DNA of 12,767 bases from a virus (Duplodnaviria; Heunggongvirae; Uroviricota; Caudoviricetes). A model generated the notes under the pieces. The model was not told the DNA's origin and did no database searches. It was given only the letters and a program-made list of their open reading frames with translations. The DNA is taken from positions 1-12,767 of IMG/VR virus record IMGVR_UViG_2526164619_000005. The stretch is one strand, 5' to 3'. Both the position numbers and the translations under genes were made by a program. The number at the start of each line of letters is the position of its first letter. The stretch's first letter is position 1. This document shows, in pieces, positions 1 through 7,767 of the stretch.

Positions 1-244
1 AATATATCTCGCTCAAGGCGAGCTTCATTTAACGCCTTACGCAGTTGCAGAATTTCAGATTCCAGTTCAGCCACCGTGCGGGAACCAGGAGTACCGAGCC
101 CTTTTCTGGCGGCGGTAACCCATTGTCCTAAAGTGCCTTCAGGAAGGGATAATCGGGAAGCGCCTTCACTGATCGAAAGTTGATTTTCAAGAACCGTTCT
201 GACAGCTTCGGCTTTGAACTCTTTAGAGTAACGTTGGTTTTTTC
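1..244 (-). mobile_element. Partial IS3-family (IS600-like) copy: orfA codons 3-86 on the minus strand, cut by the window edge and by the IS66-family element at 244/245
   Basis: Reverse complement of 1-244 matches 8219-8462 (orfA of the complete copy) base for base as far as I could compare by eye; the match stops exactly where GTAAGCG begins at 245. Confidence 0.85.
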
Positions 245-330
245 GTAAGCGTAAACTGACCGCCGTATGTAGCCATTAAGCCTGTATTGGTAACGTAGGT
301 GCCCACCTTTTCAACTAGTGGACACCTGTT

Positions 331-751
331 ATGGAACAGAAAGCATTATCTGCAGAACCCCGCAGATCATTTTCAAATGAGTTTAAACTTCAAATGGTTA
401 AACTGGCTTCACAACCAGGAGCCTCTGTTGCCCGTATTGCCCGGGGAACACGATATCAATGATAACCTGCTGTTCAAATGGCTCAGGCTCTGGCAGAACA
501 AAGGGCGCATATCGCGGCGTCTTCCGGTAACAACCTCTTCTGACACTGGCGTTGAATTATTACCTGTGGAGATAACGCCGGATGAGCCGAAAGAACCGGT
601 GGCTGCTCTTACTCCGTCTTTATCTACTCAGACTACAGTTAGTGCCAGCTCCTGCAAGGTGGAGTTCCGTCACGGTAACATGACGCTGGAAAATCCTTCA
701 CCAGAGCTGCTCACAGTGTTGATCCGTGAACTGACCGGGAGGGGACGATGA
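331..751 (+). pseudogene. IS66-family orfA (accessory helix-turn-helix protein), frameshifted
   Basis: ATG at 331 opens a reading frame giving MEQKALSAEPRRSFSNEFKLQMVKLASQPGASVARIAR, which hits a stop at 460-462. The protein continues in the +1 frame (EHDINDNLLFKWLRLWQNKGRISRR... to 751). The switch sits at a run of four G at 443-446, consistent with one extra G. Confidence 0.7.
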
Positions 752-1098
752 TCTCACTCCCGTCAGGCACCCGCATCTGGCTCGTTGCTGGGATAACCGA
801 TATGCGTAAGTCTTTCAACGGGCTGGGTGAACAGGTACAGCATGTGCTGAATGATAATCCCTTCTCCGGTCACCTGTTCATCTTCCGTGGCCGACGGGGT
901 GACATGATTAAAATCCTGTGGGCTGATGCTGATGGTCTGTGCCTGTTCACCAGACGCCTGGAGGAAGGCCAGTTTATCTGGCCTGCTGTGCGTGACGGCA
1001 AGGTATCCATTACCCGCTCGCAACTGGCAATGCTCCTCGATAAGCTGGACTGGCGTCAGCCAAAAACATCCCGCCTTAACGCACTGACAATGTTGTAA
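748..1098 (+). CDS. IS66-family orfB (TnpB-like accessory protein), apparently intact, 116 aa
   Basis: ORF begins MISLPSGTRIWLVAGITDMRKSFNGLGEQV...; its start overlaps the orfA stop (ATGA at 748-751), the usual IS66 arrangement. Confidence 0.8.
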   Translation: MISLPSGTRIWLVAGITDMRKSFNGLGEQVQHVLNDNPFSGHLFIFRGRRGDMIKILWADADGLCLFTRRLEEGQFIWPAVRDGKVSITRSQLAMLLDKLDWRQPKTSRLNALTML

Positions 1099-1128
1099 AA
1101 ATGTCATGGCCGGATTATAAAAACGGCC

Positions 1129-2721
1129 ATGAATCAAAAATACCTCATTCGCATTGCAGAACTGGAATGCCAGCTCCGTCAGAAAGACCAGCAACTGAGT
1201 CTGGTTGAAGAGACGGAGGCCTTCCTGCGCTCTGCACTGGCCCGCGCCGAAGAAAAGATCGAAGAAGATGAACGGGAAATAGAACATCTGCGGGCTCAGA
1301 TAGAAAAACTGCGCCGGATGCTGTTCGGTACCCGTTCTGAAAAACTGCGTCGTGAAGTTGAACAGGCTGAGGCCCTGCTGAAACAAAGCGAACAGGACAG
1401 TGATCGTTACAGTGGGCGGGAAGACGATCCGCAGGTTCCCCGCCAGTTGCGACAGTCTCGTCATCGTCGCCCGTTACCGGAGCATCTGCCCCGCGAAATA
1501 AATCGCCTGGAGCCAGAAGAAAGCTGTTGCCCGGAGTGTGGCGGTGAGCTGGATTATCTGGGGGAAGTCAGCGCAGAACAACTGGAACTGGTGAGCAGCG
1601 CTCTGAAAGTGATCCGCACAGAACGGGTAAAAAAAGCCTGTCCAAAATGTGACTGCATCGTTGAAGCACCGGCACCATCCCGTCCGATAGAGCGTGGTAT
1701 CGCGGGCCCGGGGTTACTTGCCCGCGTGTTAACGGGAAAATACTGCGAACACCTGCCACTGTATCGTCAGAGTGAAATTTTTTGCCCGTCAGGGTGTCGA
1801 ACTGAGCCGTGCATTACTCTCCAACTGGGTTGACGCGTGCTGCCAGTTAATGACGCCGCTGAATGATGCTCTGTACCGTTATGTGATGAACAGCCGCAAA
1901 GTTCACACTGATGACACACCAGTAAAAGTGCTGGCACCGGGCAGGAAGAAGGCGAAAACAGGATATATCTGGACGTATGTCCGGGATGACAGGAATGCCG
2001 GTTCGCCAGAGCCTCCGGCGGTCTGGTTCGCCTACTCACCGGACCATCAGGGTAACATCCGGAGCAGCACCTTAGTCCCTTCCGGGGTATCCTGCAGGCA
2101 GATGCGTTTAATGGTTACGATCGGCTGTTCAGTGCCGAACGAGAAGGCGGCGCGTTGACGGAAGCAGGATGCTGGGCTCATGCGCGGCGCAAAGTCCACG
2201 ATGTATATATCAGTACCAAAAGCGCGACAGCGGAAGAAGCCCTGAAACTAATCGGTGAGCTGTACGCCATCGAGCACGAAATACGCGGGTTGCCGGTGTC
2301 TGAACGCCTGGCGGTCAGGCAAATGCAGAGTAAACTGCTACTGACTTCTCTGTATAAGCTGATGCAGGAGAAAGAACACACGTTATCGAAAAAATGCCGT
2401 CTGAGAGATGCGTTCCGGTATATCAGGAAGCACTGGGTTGCGTTGTGCAACTTCAGTGATGATGGTCTGGCTGAGGCGGATAATAATGCCGCGGAAAGAG
2501 CGCGTCGTGCAGTCTGTCTCGGAAAGAAAAACTTTATGTTCTTCGGCAGCGATCACGGTGGAGAGCGTGGTGCGCTACTGTACGGGCTGATCGGCACCTG
2601 CCGACTGAACGGTATCGATCCGGAAGCGTATCTGCGCTATATCCTGAGCGTACTGCCGGAATGGCCTTCCAACCGTGTTGACGAACTCCTGCCATGGAAC
2701 GTAGCACTCACCAATAAATAA
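1129..2721 (+). pseudogene. IS66-family transposase (orfC/TnpC) broken into three ORFs by two single-base indels
   Basis: Three pieces (1129-1833, 1772-2158, 2155-2721) together read as one transposase (zinc-finger-like CPECGG...CPKCD motif, then ...YIWTYVRDD..., ...AGCWAHARRK...). The frame changes +1 at a run of six T (1778-1783) and returns at a two-A site (2054-2055, ggtaacatcc). Confidence 0.75.
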
Positions 2722-2809
2722 GCGTCAATACGGTGCTCCGTTGACGCTGATATGACTTTCCGTGTCAAACCGGAATCTCTAATTTTGACGATTTTCTTTT
2801 TAGGTTTAA

Positions 2810-2996
2810 TTCCCTGAGGGCGACGTAGCAGTAAATCCGACGGTGAATCACGCTGATATTCGCGGGTTGGATACCGCATTACAGAGGTCCGTCATATGAG
2901 CCTGCCACTTTCTTACGTCGCGAATCAGCTTTGTTCCGCCGTCGCCAAGCGCTAACGTGGGTTACTCTTGTACCGGGCTACGTCGCCTTCAGGGAA
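2810..2996. repeat. Pair of 20-bp inverted repeats (2810-2829 ttccctgagggcgacgtagc; 2977-2996 gctacgtcgccttcagggaa) flanking a 147-bp spacer
   Basis: The arms are reverse complements with one mismatch. They lie between the IS66 transposase stop and the IS110-family transposase stop; meaning unknown. Confidence 0.5.
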
Positions 2997-3013
2997 CTGG
3001 TTATTCTCATTTT

Positions 3014-4141
3014 TTATTTGTGACATTGTGGTTGTTGTGCGACAGACATTGCTATTCGGCCCATATCCCAGATAAAACCCGCCAGCTCACGTGCAACAGC
3101 AACAATTGTAATATTGACATTCTTTCCTTTGGCCTGAAGTTTTCGATACCTCTTACAAAGCCTGAGTTGAGCATCCCATGCTCTGTCAATGACGGGGCGG
3201 GGTAAATTTTCCTGCCTTTTTTGTATTGCCGGACTGATGCGTGCCGGATGACGGTAACTCCACGCTGCCTCGACCAATAGCTTTCTGGCATAGCTGTTTC
3301 CGGCTTTGGTAATGCTGCCCTGATGTCTGCTTCCACCCGATGAATATTCTGATGGCGTGATACCAAACCATGACATCAGTTGTCGTGGATGTTCAAAACG
3401 GGTCAGATCACCCAGTTCAGAAATTAATCCAACCGCAGTAATAAACTGAATCCCTCGCATGGCTTGCAGCGCCTCTACTACCGGATACAGCCTCCATTCG
3501 GTAACGGCCTCCTTCAGGGCGGATTCCAGCCGTTCACATTGTGCCTGCCGGTCTTCTATTGTACGACGGTGTTCGTCAAAAGCTAATTGTCGCCAGGGAC
3601 TTTCGAATGAGTATTTGCTGAGCCAGCGTCGGTGTGCAGGGCCCCAATCTGCTCGCCCGACATAATGGACCCCATGAACCAGAAGAAACGATTTCAGACG
3701 TTGCCTTGCATGCCGTAAATCATCGCGGGCAGATGCCCATGCCCGGGCCAAATCCCGGAATGCCTCATCTTCAATGCCGGGTACGTAGACAGCAGAAAGA
3801 TCTCCTGCACGCAGTGAACGCACAAGTCTGATGGCATCACGGCGATCGGTTTTAACCCGCTCCCCCGGTTTTTTCGGGATAAGTGAGGGGGCGCAGACCA
3901 TGCAGTCAAAACCGGATTTCACCAGCCGACGATAAAGTCCATAACCACAGGGCCACGCTTCATAAACGATACTGACCTGCGATGACTTTGACCTGAGACG
4001 TTTACAAAGATTCTGAATATCAGTAGGTGATGTGCCAATTTTACCCATCAGTTCAACAGGTTCTGAATTGATAGCATAAGCGACAGTAATCGATTCTTTG
4101 TGAACATCTAACCCGACGTACAATGTGTTATTGTTGTTCAT
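3014..4141 (-). CDS. IS110-family transposase (DEDD type), 375 aa, apparently intact
   Basis: Begins MNNNNTLYVGLDVHKESITVAYA... (IS110 N-terminal motif) and has the family's C-terminal region (...GIQFITAVGLISELGDLTRFEHPRQLMSWFGITPSEYSSGG...). GGAGG ribosome-binding site upstream of the ATG at 4139-4141. The six-frame ORF extends to 4189 but the first ATG with a ribosome-binding site is used here. Element boundaries not determined. Confidence 0.85.
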   Translation of the reverse strand: MNNNNTLYVGLDVHKESITVAYAINSEPVELMGKIGTSPTDIQNLCKRLRSKSSQVSIVYEAWPCGYGLYRRLVKSGFDCMVCAPSLIPKKPGERVKTDRRDAIRLVRSLRAGDLSAVYVPGIEDEAFRDLARAWASARDDLRHARQRLKSFLLVHGVHYVGRADWGPAHRRWLSKYSFESPWRQLAFDEHRRTIEDRQAQCERLESALKEAVTEWRLYPVVEALQAMRGIQFITAVGLISELGDLTRFEHPRQLMSWFGITPSEYSSGGSRHQGSITKAGNSYARKLLVEAAWSYRHPARISPAIQKRQENLPRPVIDRAWDAQLRLCKRYRKLQAKGKNVNITIVAVARELAGFIWDMGRIAMSVAQQPQCHK

Positions 4142-4356
4142 GCTGGCCTCCGTGGTGGAAATACCGGGGTGTAGCAACAGCTCACCCATGCGGCTCTGAC
4201 AACGATGTTAACCCGCGTTAAATATCCCACGTTGGCCAGCATCTGTCTCACGGAAAGTCATACTGCCTTACTATCGTATTGATTGATCTGCATCAAATTA
4301 ACGTAAAAGCAACTTCAGATAATACAAATCAGCAACACTGAATATGGGGAAACATT

Positions 4357-4557
4357 ATGTCATCAAAGAACAGAACCCGCAGAACAACAACCCGCAACAT
4401 CCGATTTCCAAACCCGATGATTGAACAAATTAACATCGCTCTTGATCTGAAAGGTTCAGGAAACTTTTCAGCGTGGGTTATTGAAGCCTGCAGGAGAAGG
4501 CTGGCAACAGATGCAACGCATCTGCGCCCGGCCAGCATGAAAAATAACGAGAAATGA
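4357..4557 (+). CDS. Small YlcI-like protein (DUF3950-type, likely ribbon-helix-helix DNA binding), 66 aa
   Basis: MSSKNRTRRTTTRNIRFPNPMIEQINIALDLKGSGNFSAWVIEACRRRL... resembles, from memory, prophage DLP12 YlcI. GGGGA ribosome-binding site before the ATG. Confidence 0.55.
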   Translation: MSSKNRTRRTTTRNIRFPNPMIEQINIALDLKGSGNFSAWVIEACRRRLATDATHLRPASMKNNEK

Positions 4558-4688
4558 ACGTTCGGTTACAGGAGCAGGTACCCACTGTCCTCCAACAATA
4601 TTTCATCTTCATATCCGACGGAACAAGACTTACCCTGCCGGGATGTACAGAATAACAACAGAGTGATAATTAATTTCTGATGAAATAA

Positions 4689-5015
4689 TCAGGGTGCAGA
4701 AGGACTAAAGATAAACGTTTTCTTCACGCCTTTACACGGCCTGTCCTTCTCAAATCGCCATTTTGCCATCGCCTTTACAACCTGCTCATCAAACAAATGG
4801 TGCGGCTCTGAACGGATAAACTCAATTCGAGTGACAGTACCATCAGCACCAATATCAAACTTCACATCAACCCGTCCCTTTATATAATTTGCCGCTGCAT
4901 AGGCCGGATATTGTGGTAATGCCTTAACCAACTGTCGGGGCATATCTGTTTTATGTTGCGTACAGCCCATAACCAGAGAAGACAACAAAATAATTAACGG
5001 AAGGTTTCTTTTCAT
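4689..5015 (-). CDS. Lipoprotein with a TonB C-terminal-like domain, about 108 aa
   Basis: N-terminus MKRNLPLIILLSSLVMGC has signal-peptide character with a lipobox-like VMGC. The body (PQYPAYAAANYIKGRVDVKFDIGADGTVTRIEFIRSEPHHLFDEQVVKAMAKWRFE) aligns motif by motif with the E. coli TonB C-terminal domain as I recall it. Start could be ATG 5021 or 5015; the ORF track's 5030 start is a GTG. Confidence 0.7.
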   Translation of the reverse strand: MKRNLPLIILLSSLVMGCTQHKTDMPRQLVKALPQYPAYAAANYIKGRVDVKFDIGADGTVTRIEFIRSEPHHLFDEQVVKAMAKWRFEKDRPCKGVKKTFIFSPSAP

Positions 5016-5035
5016 TTTCATTCCCGGCACAGATA

Positions 5036-5078
5036 AGAATAAGTCTTATTCTAACAATGCCACCCTGTCGGTCATCAA
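5036..5078 (-). promoter_or_regulatory. Putative sigma70-type promoter plus perfect palindrome (AGAATAAG-T-CTTATTCT, 5036-5052) upstream of the lipoprotein gene
   Basis: On the minus strand: TTGATG (5073-5078), then TAGAAT (5048-5053) with a 19-nt spacer, longer than optimal. The 8-bp-arm palindrome overlaps the -10 element, as an operator would. Confidence 0.3.
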
Positions 5079-5359
5079 TCCTCTGCTTAATGGCAACGAC
5101 AATTATCCGACTTAAATCACAAATCAGACACATGACATAACAGAGCTTGCGAGGTAACACATCGTCCGGTTTCTTCCACCATCGCACCGGACCAGCGACC
5201 ATGAGGGGACAACGCCGCGCTCCGTTAACGCGGTAAACCCCGGTGTGTATCGTTTTTGATTATCCCCGCACACTCGCGCAGAGGAGTCTCCCGGTCGGGC
5301 TGCGGTCTCTGTTAATGCGGGGATACGGCGACAATACCGCGCATGGTTAATAAGGTCGC

Positions 5360-5583
5360 TCAACACACTGGCTGTAATGCAGCGGATACCATGCGGCATT
5401 TAGCGGCATTCATCGTACACTCAACGGTTAGCTCTTCATTCGTGGCATTCACCTGAAAGGTCCGGGAGTGTAATTGCGTACATTTACCACTGAACGAACC
5501 TTCAACAAGAACACGACCACGCTGCAAAATACGGAACGGAATTGTTCCCTGAAAAGGCTTTACGGTTACCAGTAATTTCTTCA
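5360..5583 (-). CDS. Hypothetical 74-aa protein downstream of Rz
   Basis: ATG at 5581-5583 preceded by a GGAGA ribosome-binding site; MKKLLVTVKPFQGTIPFRILQRGRVLVEGSFSGKCTQLHSRTF.... No family recognised. Confidence 0.4.
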
Positions 5584-5607
5584 TGCATTCTCCGGATAAC
5601 AAAAATA

Positions 5608-6081
5608 CTAGTTAATACACTGAGTGCGGATATATTCCTGCGCCCCTTCCAGTTGCTTCTGCATTGTCATCAACCGCTCTCTGAGGGTGAAATAATCCCG
5701 TTCAGCGGTGTCTGCCAGTCGGGGGCCGGTTGCATTATCCATTCCGGAGGTGCCGGTGGCTTCACGCACGGTACCGGAGCAGGTGGCGTTGATCCGCAGG
5801 CGCTTACGACCAGCGGCAACATCAGCACGCAGAGTTTCATTTTCAGCTCTCGCATCGGCTAATTCCCTTGAGTATCTGGCATCAAGCGCAGCAACATCAC
5901 GCTGGCGCTGCTGCATGTCAGTAATGGTTGCGTTTGCCAGCTCCAGCTCTCTGGCTTTTTTATCGCGCTGCGCTTTGTAGGTGATGGCGTTATCACGGTA
6001 ATGGTCTGTTGCCAGCCACAGCGCACCACAGACCACCAGCAGAATAACGGTAAACGCGGAAAGCATTCGGTTTATGTTCAC
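5608..6081 (-). CDS. Rz: Rz inner-membrane spanin (i-spanin), lambda-like
   Basis: ...[55 protein letters not shown]...[27 protein letters not shown] matches lambda Rz closely from memory. Start is either GTG 6079-6081 or ATG 6064-6066. Confidence 0.85.
5670..5840 (-). CDS. Rz1: Rz1 outer-membrane lipoprotein spanin (o-spanin), embedded in Rz in the +1 frame
   Basis: [56 protein letters not shown]: lipobox, proline-rich, same architecture as lambda Rz1. Confidence 0.8.
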
Positions 6082-6209
6082 CCCAGCAGCCCCGACGAAG
6101 ACAACATCATCCAGGCCATGGAAAGAAAAAGAGCAACCAGCATTAGTGAAAATGAAATGCCGACAATTACACAGAGGATCTTCGCCAGCGTTATGAGTTT
6201 GTCTGACAT
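6078..6209 (-). CDS. 43-aa hydrophobic single-helix membrane peptide
   Basis: [49 protein letters not shown] ribosome-binding site 8 nt upstream; its TGA stop overlaps the GTG start of Rz (GTGA). Confidence 0.45.
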
Positions 6210-6223
6210 GCTTAATCCTCCCT

Positions 6224-6406
6224 TCACGATTTCAACGCAATGACCAGTTTTGCCAGCCCATACAGCATCGGGGACACAGCAACACCGACCGCCACCCACT
6301 TAATGGCAAAAGCCAGTGCTCTGCTGATGTCATCAGTTACAGGCGCTTTCAGTTCAAGGCCGTTTTTCATGGTCAACCTCAACAGAATTCGTTTATACTT
6401 CGCCAT
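6224..6406 (-). CDS. 61-aa small protein with a C-terminal hydrophobic helix
   Basis: [66 protein letters not shown] ribosome-binding site upstream; stop is 14 nt before the 43-aa ORF. Confidence 0.45.
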
Positions 6407-6432
6407 GTTCTCCCTTGCCTTACTCAAGGTCA

Positions 6433-6467
6433 GAAACACAAAACCCCGCTTGGTGCCAACAAACGGG
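6433..6467 (-). terminator. Rho-independent-type terminator hairpin (minus strand), between endolysin and the small ORFs
   Basis: Minus-strand RNA: 8-bp stem CCCGUUUG/CAAGCGGG (one G-U pair), loop UUGGCAC, then GUUUUGUGUUUC. The plus strand also shows a hairpin followed by TTTTTT (6468-6473). Confidence 0.55.
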
Positions 6468-6604
6468 TTTTTTACTTTTATTCACTTACGTTTCGCCAGT
6501 TCGCAGGATTTCGTGTTATCCGTCCGCGTGCTCATGTCTTATTTTTCAGCAAAATATTCTGCTTATCTGTCGATGTCCCAGCACGCCAGCGCACTTTCCT
6601 GGTC

Positions 6605-7096
6605 TCACCGGGATACCTGACCGTAGCAATTATTTGAGCGGATACGGCAGTCTCTGCCACCGTCCTTAATCCACCAGCGAATCGCTTCGCATGCTCCCCT
6701 GCGGTCACCAGCATTAATCCGTCTGTAAAACGTCGACGGGAAACACTTACCGGGGCCAATGTTATAGGGACAAAATGACGCGATACCCGCTTTCTGGGGT
6801 TCGGTCAGCGGCACTTTAATATTGCGCTCCACCCATGCCAGCGCCTTATCACGCTCAATGGCGTTGACCTGGTCGCATTTTTCCTTCGACAACTTCATGC
6901 CCGGGACGACAGGTTTACTATCCACCAGGATGGCACCGCGGCAGATGGTCCAGATACCCGCGCCATCACGGTATGCCGTGGTGTGGTTACCTTCCTTTTC
7001 ATCCAGAAACTGGTCGAGGATTTCAGGCGCAGGCGCACCTGCGGCAATCAGCGCCAGAACGGCAGCCGACAGGCCGTATTTGATTTTGGTGTTCAT
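6605..7096 (-). CDS. Phage endolysin (lysozyme) of the signal-anchor-release type, RrrD/P21-like
   Basis: N-terminal hydrophobic anchor (MNTKIKYGLSAAVLALIAAGAPAPE) followed by a lysozyme-like body (...EGNHTTAYRDGAGIWTICRG...). Stop is TGA at 6605-6607 (see findings). Confidence 0.85.
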   Translation of the reverse strand: MNTKIKYGLSAAVLALIAAGAPAPEILDQFLDEKEGNHTTAYRDGAGIWTICRGAILVDSKPVVPGMKLSKEKCDQVNAIERDKALAWVERNIKVPLTEPQKAGIASFCPYNIGPGKCFPSTFYRRINAGDRRGACEAIRWWIKDGGRDCRIRSNNCYGQVSR

Positions 7097-7138
7097 GGAT
7101 ATTTATCAGGGTTTATCGATTTCAAATCCCTGGATATG

Positions 7139-7471
7139 TTAAGTCTTCAGAGAACCAGTAATTATTCCCGGTAGTTTTCCTCTGTAGGTTATCAACACAT
7201 CCTGCGCCTCTAAAATTACGGGGCGCTTTTCCGGCAACGGACCATCCCCTTCACATAACCCGGCAGCAACATCCATGAAAAACTGCTTCGCCTGCTTTTT
7301 CGCCTCAGCTTCGTAAAACTCCAGCGTGGCATCTTCAGTACGGTCAAGACTAATCGCCACATCTGGCAACAACAGTGACGGACACCCACCAATTTCCAGT
7401 GCCACAGTAACAGTAATCTTATTCGGGTAATTATTTATCCCTTTAACAACCAGTTCGTATTTTTTCTTCAT
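7139..7471 (-). CDS. Hypothetical 110-aa protein between holin and endolysin (possibly YdfR/DUF1327-like by position)
   Basis: ATG 7469-7471 with GGGGAGAG ribosome-binding site, 4 nt after the holin stop. MKKKYELVVKGINNYPNKITVTVALEIGGCPSLLLPD.... Family assignment is by synteny memory only. Confidence 0.55.
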   Translation of the reverse strand: MKKKYELVVKGINNYPNKITVTVALEIGGCPSLLLPDVAISLDRTEDATLEFYEAEAKKQAKQFFMDVAAGLCEGDGPLPEKRPVILEAQDVLITYRGKLPGIITGSLKT

Positions 7472-7475
7472 CGCT

Positions 7476-7691
7476 TTACTCTCCCCGCGCCGCCTTACGA
7501 CGGTCCTCTCTGATTTTGAAATACAGGTTAGTCAGATATGTCAGCAGCCCAAACAACAGACTCCCCAGCACGCCTATTGCCGCCCACTGAGACGGGGAAA
7601 CCCTGTCCAGCAACTGCAGGAACCAGTAGCCCGTTCCCACCGCAGATGTGGTGTATGACACACCTGTTGTGATTTTTTCCATCTGGTACAT
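7476..7691 (-). CDS. Class II holin (S21-like pinholin) with dual-start motif MYQM
   Basis: [71 protein letters not shown]: S21/EssD-like. Two in-frame ATGs (7689-7691 and 7680-7682) would give 71- and 68-aa forms. Confidence 0.85.
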
Positions 7692-7767
7692 ACCCCGTCT
7701 CCCGCAATCCGGAAGCTCACAACAATATAAAGACCACCGGCACACACCGATGGTCCCTTGCGCATGC

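What the first reader, a model, noticed from the sequence alone, without database searches (positions are those of the whole stretch)
331..2721. IS66-family element carries three single-base indels at homopolymer or short runs, two of them compensating
orfA shifts frame at GGGG (443-446). The transposase shifts +1 at TTTTTT (1778-1783) and back at the two-A site (2054-2055), so the segment between is read out of frame and hits a stop at 1831-1833. Indels confined to short runs in several elements are the signature of either genuine decay (common in Shigella-like genomes) or homopolymer sequencing errors. This matters for how far to trust every pseudogene call in the window.
Basis: seen in the sequence. 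Interest (0 to 1): 0.4.

Follow-up and report, generated by a model that had tools for sequence, protein, structure and literature searches.

The report
Frameshifted IS66 copy in Shigella draft
An ordinary IS66-family insertion sequence in a 2012 draft genome of Shigella flexneri K-315 carries three one-base frameshifts found in no other copy examined, and they look slightly more like assembly errors in a repeated element than like true gene decay.

Summary
Against ten other copies of this IS66-family element, the window has +G (G4, 443-446), +T (T6, 1778-1783) and -A (A2, 2054-2055). As written, TnpA stops at 460-462 and TnpC at 1831-1833.

The window is the whole contig AKMY01000008.1 of Shigella flexneri K-315. 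The element spans 245-4272, wider than reported, because an IS110-family ISSso6 sits 3 bp inside its right tip.

Reads are needed to decide whether the indels are real; I lean to artefact (about 0.55 against 0.40).
- **For artefact:** a sister copy on K-315 contig 6 reads T4 at the same run, where every other copy reads T5. That copy has four different private indels. K-315-internal differences are indel-rich, 10 indels to about 8 substitutions. None of about 2,000-3,000 E. coli copies carries G4, T6 or A2.
- **For real decay:** 4,029 bp beside the element match four other assemblies exactly. Two further K-315 IS66 copies are intact. One IS600 indel is not in a homopolymer.

Pseudogene calls in the validated 4196-8224 stretch can be trusted; indels inside the IS copies cannot yet. 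This is ordinary biology of low interest.

The parts
1..244 (-). Fragment of IS600 (orfA region) abutting the IS66 left end. It lies at the start of the contig.
   Evidence: It is 100% identical over 244 bp to the intact IS600 on K-315 contig 18 (L027 5766-6009).
245..2744 (+). Body of the IS66-family element. It holds the left inverted repeat (IRL, GTAAGCGTAAACTG...), tnpA, tnpB, tnpC and most of the right inverted repeat (IRR).
   Evidence: Homology to IS66 copies starts at 245. An uninterrupted relative ends ...GACGCTTAC (L023). NCBIfam gives transpos_IS66 440.7 bits, IS66_TnpB 119.5 bits and IS66 TnpA 87.7 bits.
331..751 (+). tnpA (orfA), frameshifted. As written it yields 43 aa, ending at TGA 460-462. 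Deleting one G restores 139 aa.
   Evidence: HTH_Tnp_1 in the 43-aa stub. The repaired TnpA is an exact match to proteins of two other S. flexneri datasets.
443..446 (+). G4 run. It carries one extra G relative to all ten other copies, which read G3.
   Evidence: No exact match among 1,354 E. coli records (1,999 places).
748..1098 (+). tnpB, intact (116 aa). Its ATG overlaps the tnpA stop (ATGA).
   Evidence: It is identical to the TnpB of L001 and L003.
1129..2721 (+). tnpC (DDE transposase) broken into three frames. The ORFs are 1129-1833, 1772-2158 and 2155-2721.
   Evidence: The repaired 530-aa protein differs from the Shigella plasmid TnpC at R87S, T172P, P403L and L459R.
1778..1783 (+). 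T6 run. Nine other copies read T5 and the sister copy on K-315 contig 6 reads T4.
   Evidence: No exact match among 1,965 E. coli records (3,051 places) or 338 plasmids (464 places).
2054..2055 (+). A2 run. All ten other copies read A3.
   Evidence: No exact match among 477 E. coli records (644 places).
2745..4269 (-). ISSso6 (IS110 family) inserted 3 bp inside the IS66 right tip. Its transposase occupies 3014-4141 and is intact. Its boundaries are ambiguous by 1 bp.
   Evidence: The annotation of identical copies names it ISSso6. NCBIfam transpos_IS110 gives 271 bits. The insertion point follows from comparison with the uninterrupted ends of L023 and L026. There are no indels relative to L001 or L003.
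4270..4272 (+). The last 3 bp (TAC) of the IS66 right end.
4273..4280 (.). TATCGTAT, one half of the 8-bp target-site duplication of the ancestral insertion. The other half flanks the left inverted repeat (IRL) of the copy on K-315 contig 6.
   Evidence: L024 and L025 read ...TATCGTAT|GTAAGCG, and the window reads ...CCTTAC|TATCGTAT.

Best explanation
The object is an ordinary IS66-family insertion sequence with tnpA, tnpB and tnpC, a GTAAGCG left inverted repeat and 8-bp target duplications. It lies in a degraded lambdoid prophage of Shigella flexneri K-315. An ISSso6 (IS110 family) sits 3 bp from its right tip.

As deposited, the copy cannot make TnpA or the DDE transposase TnpC, because of +G at 443-446, +T at 1778-1783 and -A at 2054-2055.

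My best reading is that these three one-base differences are mostly or wholly consensus errors of the draft assembly. They would have arisen inside a 4-kb element that is present at least twice in near-identical form in this genome, so that reads from the two copies were partitioned poorly. On this reading they are not mutations carried by the bacterium.

Shown: the indels exist in the record, are private to this contig, and lie in short runs. Inferred: that they are technical.
For: 1. All ten other copies read G3 and A3. These include three further copies in the same K-315 assembly and copies from independent short-read datasets of related strains. Nine of the ten read T5.
2. The sister copy on K-315 contig 6 shares the derived substitutions 500A, 1387A, 2336T, 2349T and 3955A. 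It reads T4 at the very run that is T6 here. It also has four other private one-base deletions: A2 to A1 at 1622, the T run, T6 to T5 at 3010, and C3 to C2 at 3078. It shares none of the window's indels.
3. The two copies share a history. The 8-bp duplication TATCGTAT flanks the left end on contig 6 and the right end here. Despite this, the two copies differ by 7 indels against 6 substitutions.
4. Across all K-315-internal and K-315-versus-relative comparisons I count 10 indels and about 8 substitutions. With a natural indel share of 0.1-0.2 (my own estimate from published spectra), 7 or more indels in 13 events has P = 1e-4 to 7e-3.
5. None of the G4, T6, T4 or A2 alleles occurs in any complete E. 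coli genome record carrying the same 61-63-mer. The counts are 1,999, 3,051, 107 and 644 places respectively, and T6 is also absent from 464 plasmid places. These runs are therefore not natural hot spots, which makes independent T6 and T4 events in one genome unlikely.
6. In a related strain the copy at the prophage Nu1 junction (L025) carries the lineage marker 500A and reads G3.
7. K-315 also differs from that relative by a T6-versus-T7 run in terminase gpA.
Against: 1. Window 4196-8224 (4,029 bp, with 207 runs of 3 or more and 15 runs of 5 or more) is identical, with no gap, to four other assemblies. In addition, 9.1 kb of contig 6 differs from a relative by one indel and one substitution. 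General homopolymer error in this assembly is therefore low, and an error mechanism specific to the repeat has to be assumed.
2. Two other IS66 copies in the same assembly (contigs 18 and 32) have no indel in 2 x 2.5 kb.
3. The A7 run at 1628-1634 is correct in both broken copies, while G3, A3, A2 and C3 runs are hit. That is not the classic pyrosequencing error profile.
4. One IS600 indel in the window (+C at 9162) is not in a homopolymer.
5. The two broken copies are exactly the two that carry ISSso6 in their right end. Neutral decay of immobilised copies would predict this.
6. I could not establish the sequencing technology or the read depth.
Confidence: 0.55

Rival explanations
1. Genuine decay. 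The copy is an old IS66 relic immobilised by the ISSso6 insertion in its right end and by rearrangement of its flanks. It has really acquired three slippage frameshifts in vivo, as many Shigella pseudogenes have.
For: - The unique sequence next to it is reproduced exactly in four other assemblies.
- Intact IS66 copies in the same assembly show no indel.
- The two ISSso6-bearing copies are the two broken ones, and the two ISSso6-free copies are intact.
- The window copy lacks a direct target duplication (GGTTTTTC against TATCGTAT), so its flanks have been rearranged.
- Four of the five coding substitutions that set this lineage or copy apart from the intact K-315 copies are non-synonymous: TnpA E57K and TnpC R87S, T172P and P403L.
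- An EIEC pINV copy has its own independent frameshift, -G at 2367.
- The IS600 in the window has a non-homopolymer +C.
- Shigella genomes carry at least 199 pseudogenes each (PMC7373316).
Against: - T6 here and T4 in the sister copy, at a run that is T5 in thousands of other copies, would need two independent rare events at one site.
- No indel is shared by the two sister copies, although all five lineage substitutions are shared.
- The indel-to-substitution ratio is about 1 or higher, against roughly 0.1-0.2 expected.
- Five of six ISSso6-bearing copies elsewhere have intact tnpA, tnpB and tnpC, so carrying ISSso6 does not by itself go with decay.
Confidence: 0.4
2. Regulated recoding or phase variation. 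On this reading the short runs are slippery sites at which ribosomes or RNA polymerase shift frame, or tracts whose length switches transposase expression on and off.
For: The T run shows three lengths (T4, T5, T6) among copies of one assembly. IS3-family elements such as the neighbouring IS600 do use an A-run for programmed -1 frameshifting (established knowledge).
Against: - All other copies encode TnpA and TnpC in a single frame at these sites.
- Two separate shifts of opposite sign, plus one more in tnpA, would be required.
- An in-frame stop follows 48 nt after the T run.
- G4 and A2 are not slippery motifs.
- No length variant occurs in about 3,000 other copies.
Confidence: 0.02

Closest known systems
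IS66 family insertion sequences of Enterobacteriaceae. NCBI's annotation pipeline names near-identical copies 'IS66-like element ISEc22 family' or 'IS66 family transposase'; relatives at 88-93% identity are named ISEc23 or ISEc43.
   Same: - It has the tnpA-tnpB-tnpC order with an ATGA overlap of tnpA and tnpB.
- It has a DDE transposase with LZ, zf-IS66 and DDE_Tnp_IS66 domains.
- Its left inverted repeat starts GTAAGCG.
- 8-bp target duplications are seen in relatives.
- It is 99.3-99.7% identical to copies in E. coli and in Shigella plasmids.
   Different: This copy has three private one-base indels that break tnpA and tnpC. It also has an ISSso6 3 bp from its right tip, and no direct target duplication around it.
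Frameshifted IS and other pseudogenes of Shigella genomes (genome degradation, PMC7373316)
   Same: It is a small indel in a short run inactivating a gene, in a genome rich in IS elements and pseudogenes.
   Different: The inactivated gene here is the transposase of an IS copy itself. The indels are not confirmed by any second dataset, and a sister copy in the same assembly carries a conflicting run length.
Homopolymer-length consensus errors of early draft assemblies (recalled from general knowledge; the technology used for K-315 was not established here)
   Same: The changes are one-base gains and losses confined to runs of one base. They are private to one assembly and outnumber substitutions.
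   Different: The unique parts of the same contigs are nearly error-free, the longest run (A7) is unaffected, and one neighbouring indel is not in a run.

Membership tests
IS66 family | DDE transposase TnpC matching the IS66 transposase models | tested here: met
   The repaired TnpC scores 440.7 bits on NF033517 (cut-off 180). As written, LZ_Tnp_IS66, zf-IS66, DDE_Tnp_IS66 and DDE_Tnp_IS66_C are spread over three ORFs.
IS66 family | Accessory TnpB (PF05717 / NF033819) upstream of tnpC | tested here: met
   Window 748-1098 scores 119.5 bits (cut-off 50) and is intact.
IS66 family | Accessory TnpA with a helix-turn-helix motif, its stop overlapping the tnpB start | tested here: met
   The repaired TnpA scores 87.7 bits on NF047595 (cut-off 74). 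An ATGA overlap lies at 748-751. As written, it is truncated at codon 43.
IS66 family | Imperfect terminal inverted repeats starting 5'-GTAAGCG | tested here: met
   The left repeat at 245 reads GTAAGCGTAAACTGACC. The right repeat of the uninterrupted relative reads ...GACGCTTAC, matching 20 of 25 positions by my own reading. In the window the right repeat is split 3 bp from its tip by ISSso6.
IS66 family | 8-bp target-site duplication | tested here: inconclusive
   There is no direct duplication around the window copy (GGTTTTTC against TATCGTAT). The matching TATCGTAT flanks the left end of the copy on K-315 contig 6. Relatives show clean 8-bp duplications: TTTTAATC in L001 and GTTTTTCT in L023.
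IS110 family (the ISSso6 insert) | DEDD-type IS110 transposase | tested here: met
   NF033542 scores 271 bits (cut-off 140). PF01548 and PF02371 hit the product. Identical copies are annotated ISSso6.
Programmed frameshift sites of IS elements (IS3-type recoding) | The frame change is conserved in all functional copies and lies at a slippery motif, with no stop before the shift can act | tested here: not met
   All ten other copies are in one frame at the three sites. The window's shifts are private to it. A stop lies 48 nt after the T run.

The most novel reading that the evidence does not exclude
The T run in tnpC (T4, T5 and T6 among four copies in one genome) could be a genuinely unstable tract in this strain. 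For example, a mismatch-repair-deficient episode in the K-315 lineage could have selectively riddled non-essential IS copies with run-length changes. The indel-rich spectrum would then be biological and would mark a past mutator phase.
Probability: 0.05. Interest if true: 0.3.

Novelty: already known. Interest (0 to 1): 0.1.

Why it matters
The practical value is in deciding which pseudogene calls in this contig can be believed.
- **Trustworthy:** the prophage stretch 4196-8224 is reproduced exactly in four other assemblies, so its broken genes are real.
- **Not yet trustworthy:** frameshifts inside the repeated IS66 and IS600 copies are private to this 2012 draft. Before resequencing they should not be counted as evidence of IS decay, used to call the element non-autonomous, or fed into pseudogene statistics.

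Nothing here changes what is known about IS66 elements.

Tried and rejected
- **Exact-protein look-ups of the frameshift products.** The 234-aa, 102-aa and 188-aa products were found only in this contig. I rejected this as evidence. NCBI's annotation pipeline (PGAP) gives pseudogenes no protein. Short-read assemblies break inside IS copies. Even ordinary genes looked 'unique' only because the submitter chose different start codons (L019 against the window).
- **Homology search with the two out-of-frame tails.** No candidate was found. This is uninformative, because only cluster representatives are searched.
- **Comparing the prophage part with complete E. coli genomes.** Identity is only about 90%, too distant to count errors.
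- **Uniform sequencing error across the contig.** Rejected. There were 7 indels in 8.06 kb of the two composites against 1 in 12.3 kb of validated unique sequence (Poisson P = 6e-6; conditional binomial test P = 0.008).
- **'The two K-315 composites are one physical copy assembled twice.'** Not adopted. The assembly shows two different left junctions and two different right junctions, and three of the four also appear in other assemblies. Chimeric joining inside the repeat is not excluded.
- **Literature search for the K-315 sequencing method**. Nothing was found.
- **Rfam scan.** Nothing in the IS region; it found only three prophage tRNAs and STnc100.

Full report
**What the window is.** An exact-protein look-up shows the window is the complete 12,767-bp contig AKMY01000008.1 of assembly GCA_000268165.1. 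The protein names identify the organism as Shigella flexneri K-315. The contig consists of:
- an IS600 fragment at 1-244;
- an IS66-family element with an inserted ISSso6 at 245-4272;
- a lambdoid prophage lysis region interrupted by a second IS600 at 8145-9414;
- a tRNA and methylase region.

**Checking the observation.** I aligned the region to the following copies.
- An intact copy in the E. coli FDAARGOS_943 chromosome (L001) and a copy on an enteroinvasive E. coli pINV plasmid (L002).
- Three Shigella plasmid copies, L003, L004 and L006. A fourth plasmid copy, L005, was compared only by BLAST.
- Three further copies in K-315 itself, on contigs 6, 18 and 32.
- Four collapsed short-read contigs from related strains.

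At all three sites the window alone deviates. It reads G4 against G3, T6 against T5 and A2 against A3. The frame consequences are as stated.
- TnpA stops at 460-462 after 43 codons.
- TnpC stops at 1831-1833 after 234 codons.
- The native frame continues in ORF 1772-2158 and returns in 2155-2721. The Pfam DDE_Tnp_IS66 profile is covered piecewise by the three ORFs.

Repairing the three sites in silico gives a 139-aa TnpA and a 530-aa TnpC. Only 14% of the element's bases lie in runs of 3 or more, so three hits out of three in such runs is not chance (about 0.003).

**What the element is.** It is a standard IS66-family element.
- The repaired proteins and the intact TnpB pass NCBI's curated IS66 models.
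- tnpA and tnpB overlap by ATGA.
- The left inverted repeat starts GTAAGCG at 245.
- Uninterrupted relatives end ...GACGCTTAC and are flanked by 8-bp duplications (L023).

In the window the right end reads ...GACGCT[about 1,525 bp]TAC. The insert is an IS110-family ISSso6 (transposase 3014-4141, 271 bits) sitting 3 bp from the tip. The same composite, with the same insertion point, occurs in E. coli, in EIEC pINV and in S. dysenteriae, S. boydii and S. flexneri plasmids. In L001 the composite is flanked by the duplication TTTTAATC.

**Evidence that the sequence of this contig is generally sound.** Four other assemblies match window 4196-8224 perfectly, 4,029 bp with no mismatch and no gap. They are GCA_049894805.1, GCA_026022055.1 and Logan assemblies of ERR200335 and ERR6006326. 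That stretch holds 207 runs of 3 or more bases and 15 runs of 5 or more. The gene disruptions in that part of the prophage are therefore real. A uniform homopolymer error process is excluded.

**Evidence that changes the picture.** Look-ups of repaired proteins gave three results.
- The repaired TnpA, which carries the lineage substitution E57K, exists intact in two other S. flexneri datasets.
- K-315 itself carries two intact IS66 copies without ISSso6, on contigs 18 and 32.
- K-315 carries a second ISSso6-bearing copy on contig 6 (L024).

That second composite shares with the window the derived substitutions 500A, 1387A, 2336T, 2349T and 3955A. It has none of the window's indels. Instead it has four other one-base deletions, and at the tnpC T run it reads T4. 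One assembly therefore gives T6, T4, T5 and T5 for its four copies, while every outside copy gives T5.

The two composites are historically linked. The 8-bp TATCGTAT lies left of the left inverted repeat on contig 6 (and in the relative L025), and right of the right inverted repeat in the window. These are the two halves of one ancestral insertion between the prophage lysis cassette and Nu1. The two contigs are therefore either reciprocal recombinants of two copies or chimeric paths through the repeat.

**Weighing artefact against decay.** Since their common ancestor, the two sister copies differ by 7 indels and 6 substitutions. The window's IS600 differs from K-315's own intact IS600 by 2 indels and 1 substitution. 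K-315 contig 6 differs from a relative over 9.1 kb by 1 indel (T6 against T7 in gpA) and 1 substitution.

Such an indel share is very unusual for natural mutation. With an indel share of 0.1-0.2, which is my estimate from published spectra, 7 or more indels in 13 events has P = 1e-4 to 7e-3. It is typical of run-length miscalls.

A census with 61-63-mers centred on each variant found no exact match in complete E. coli genomes:

| Variant | Places searched | Exact matches |
|---|---|---|
| G4 | 1,999 (E. coli) | 0 |
| T6 | 3,051 (E. coli) and 464 (plasmids) | 0 |
| T4 | 107 (E. coli) | 0 |
| A2 | 644 (E. coli) | 0 |

The runs are therefore not natural hot spots. Two opposite changes at the same T5 run in one genome are hard to explain biologically.

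Against an artefact:
- Unique flanks are clean.
- The two ISSso6-free copies in the same assembly are clean.
- The A7 run at 1628-1634 is untouched in both broken copies.
- One IS600 indel (+C at 9162) is not in a run.
- The broken copies are exactly the two with a disrupted right end, as neutral decay of immobile copies would predict.

I could not find the sequencing method or the read depth. I put the artefact reading at about 0.55, genuine decay at about 0.40, and recoding or phase variation at about 0.02.

**Comparison with what is known, and verdict.** Either way the object is a known kind of thing: an IS66-family copy that is non-functional as written. It sits in a genome known for IS expansion and pseudogenes (PMC7373316). 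The finding has practical value for annotation quality only. The prophage pseudogenes between 4196 and 8224 can be trusted. The IS-internal frameshifts need read-level or amplicon confirmation. Interest is low.

Noticed in passing
window 2745-4269; also L001, L002, L003-L006 and L024: ISSso6 (IS110 family) is inserted at the same point, 3 bp inside the IS66 right tip, and in the same orientation in every composite copy. These copies come from E. coli, EIEC pINV, Shigella plasmids and two K-315 contigs. In L001 the composite is flanked by an 8-bp duplication. This suggests either sequence-specific targeting of the IS66 right end by ISSso6, or movement of the composite as a unit.
   Followed up: partly
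window 4273-4280, L024 8392-8399 and L025 9907-9914: The two halves of one 8-bp target duplication (TATCGTAT) lie on two different K-315 contigs, each of which holds a full IS66::ISSso6 composite. The cause is either an IS66-mediated inversion or recombination in the chromosome, or reciprocal chimeric joins in the assembly.
   Followed up: partly
window 8145-9414 (IS600): This IS600 copy differs from K-315's own intact IS600 in three ways: A7 to A6 in the run used for programmed -1 frameshifting (near 8462), a non-homopolymer +C at 9162 that splits orfB, and one substitution (9268).
   Followed up: partly
L024 6155 (K-315 contig AKMY01000006.1): The terminase gpA gene has a T6 run where a related strain's assembly (GCA_026136285.1) has T7 and an intact 642-aa gene. 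This is the only indel in 9.1 kb of otherwise identical prophage DNA.
   Followed up: no
window 6469 region against L014 (Logan SRR066119): A Logan assembly of the 2010 run SRR066119 reads A5 where the window and four other assemblies read A6. This is a weak hint that runs from that period and project carry run-length noise. I do not know which strain the run belongs to.
   Followed up: no
window 11230-11470 against L019: All five differences from a relative's contig (four substitutions and a C2/C1 run) cluster in the prophage tRNA cluster. They probably reflect a paralogous prophage path in the short-read assembly. Three tRNAs (11273-11519, minus strand) and the sRNA STnc100 (11004-11194, minus strand) lie here.
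   Followed up: no
window 2810-2829 and 2977-2996: A 20-nt inverted repeat, 95% complementary with 147 nt between its arms, lies in the non-coding region downstream of the ISSso6 transposase gene. It may be a structured RNA of the IS110-type element. No Rfam family matched.
   Followed up: no
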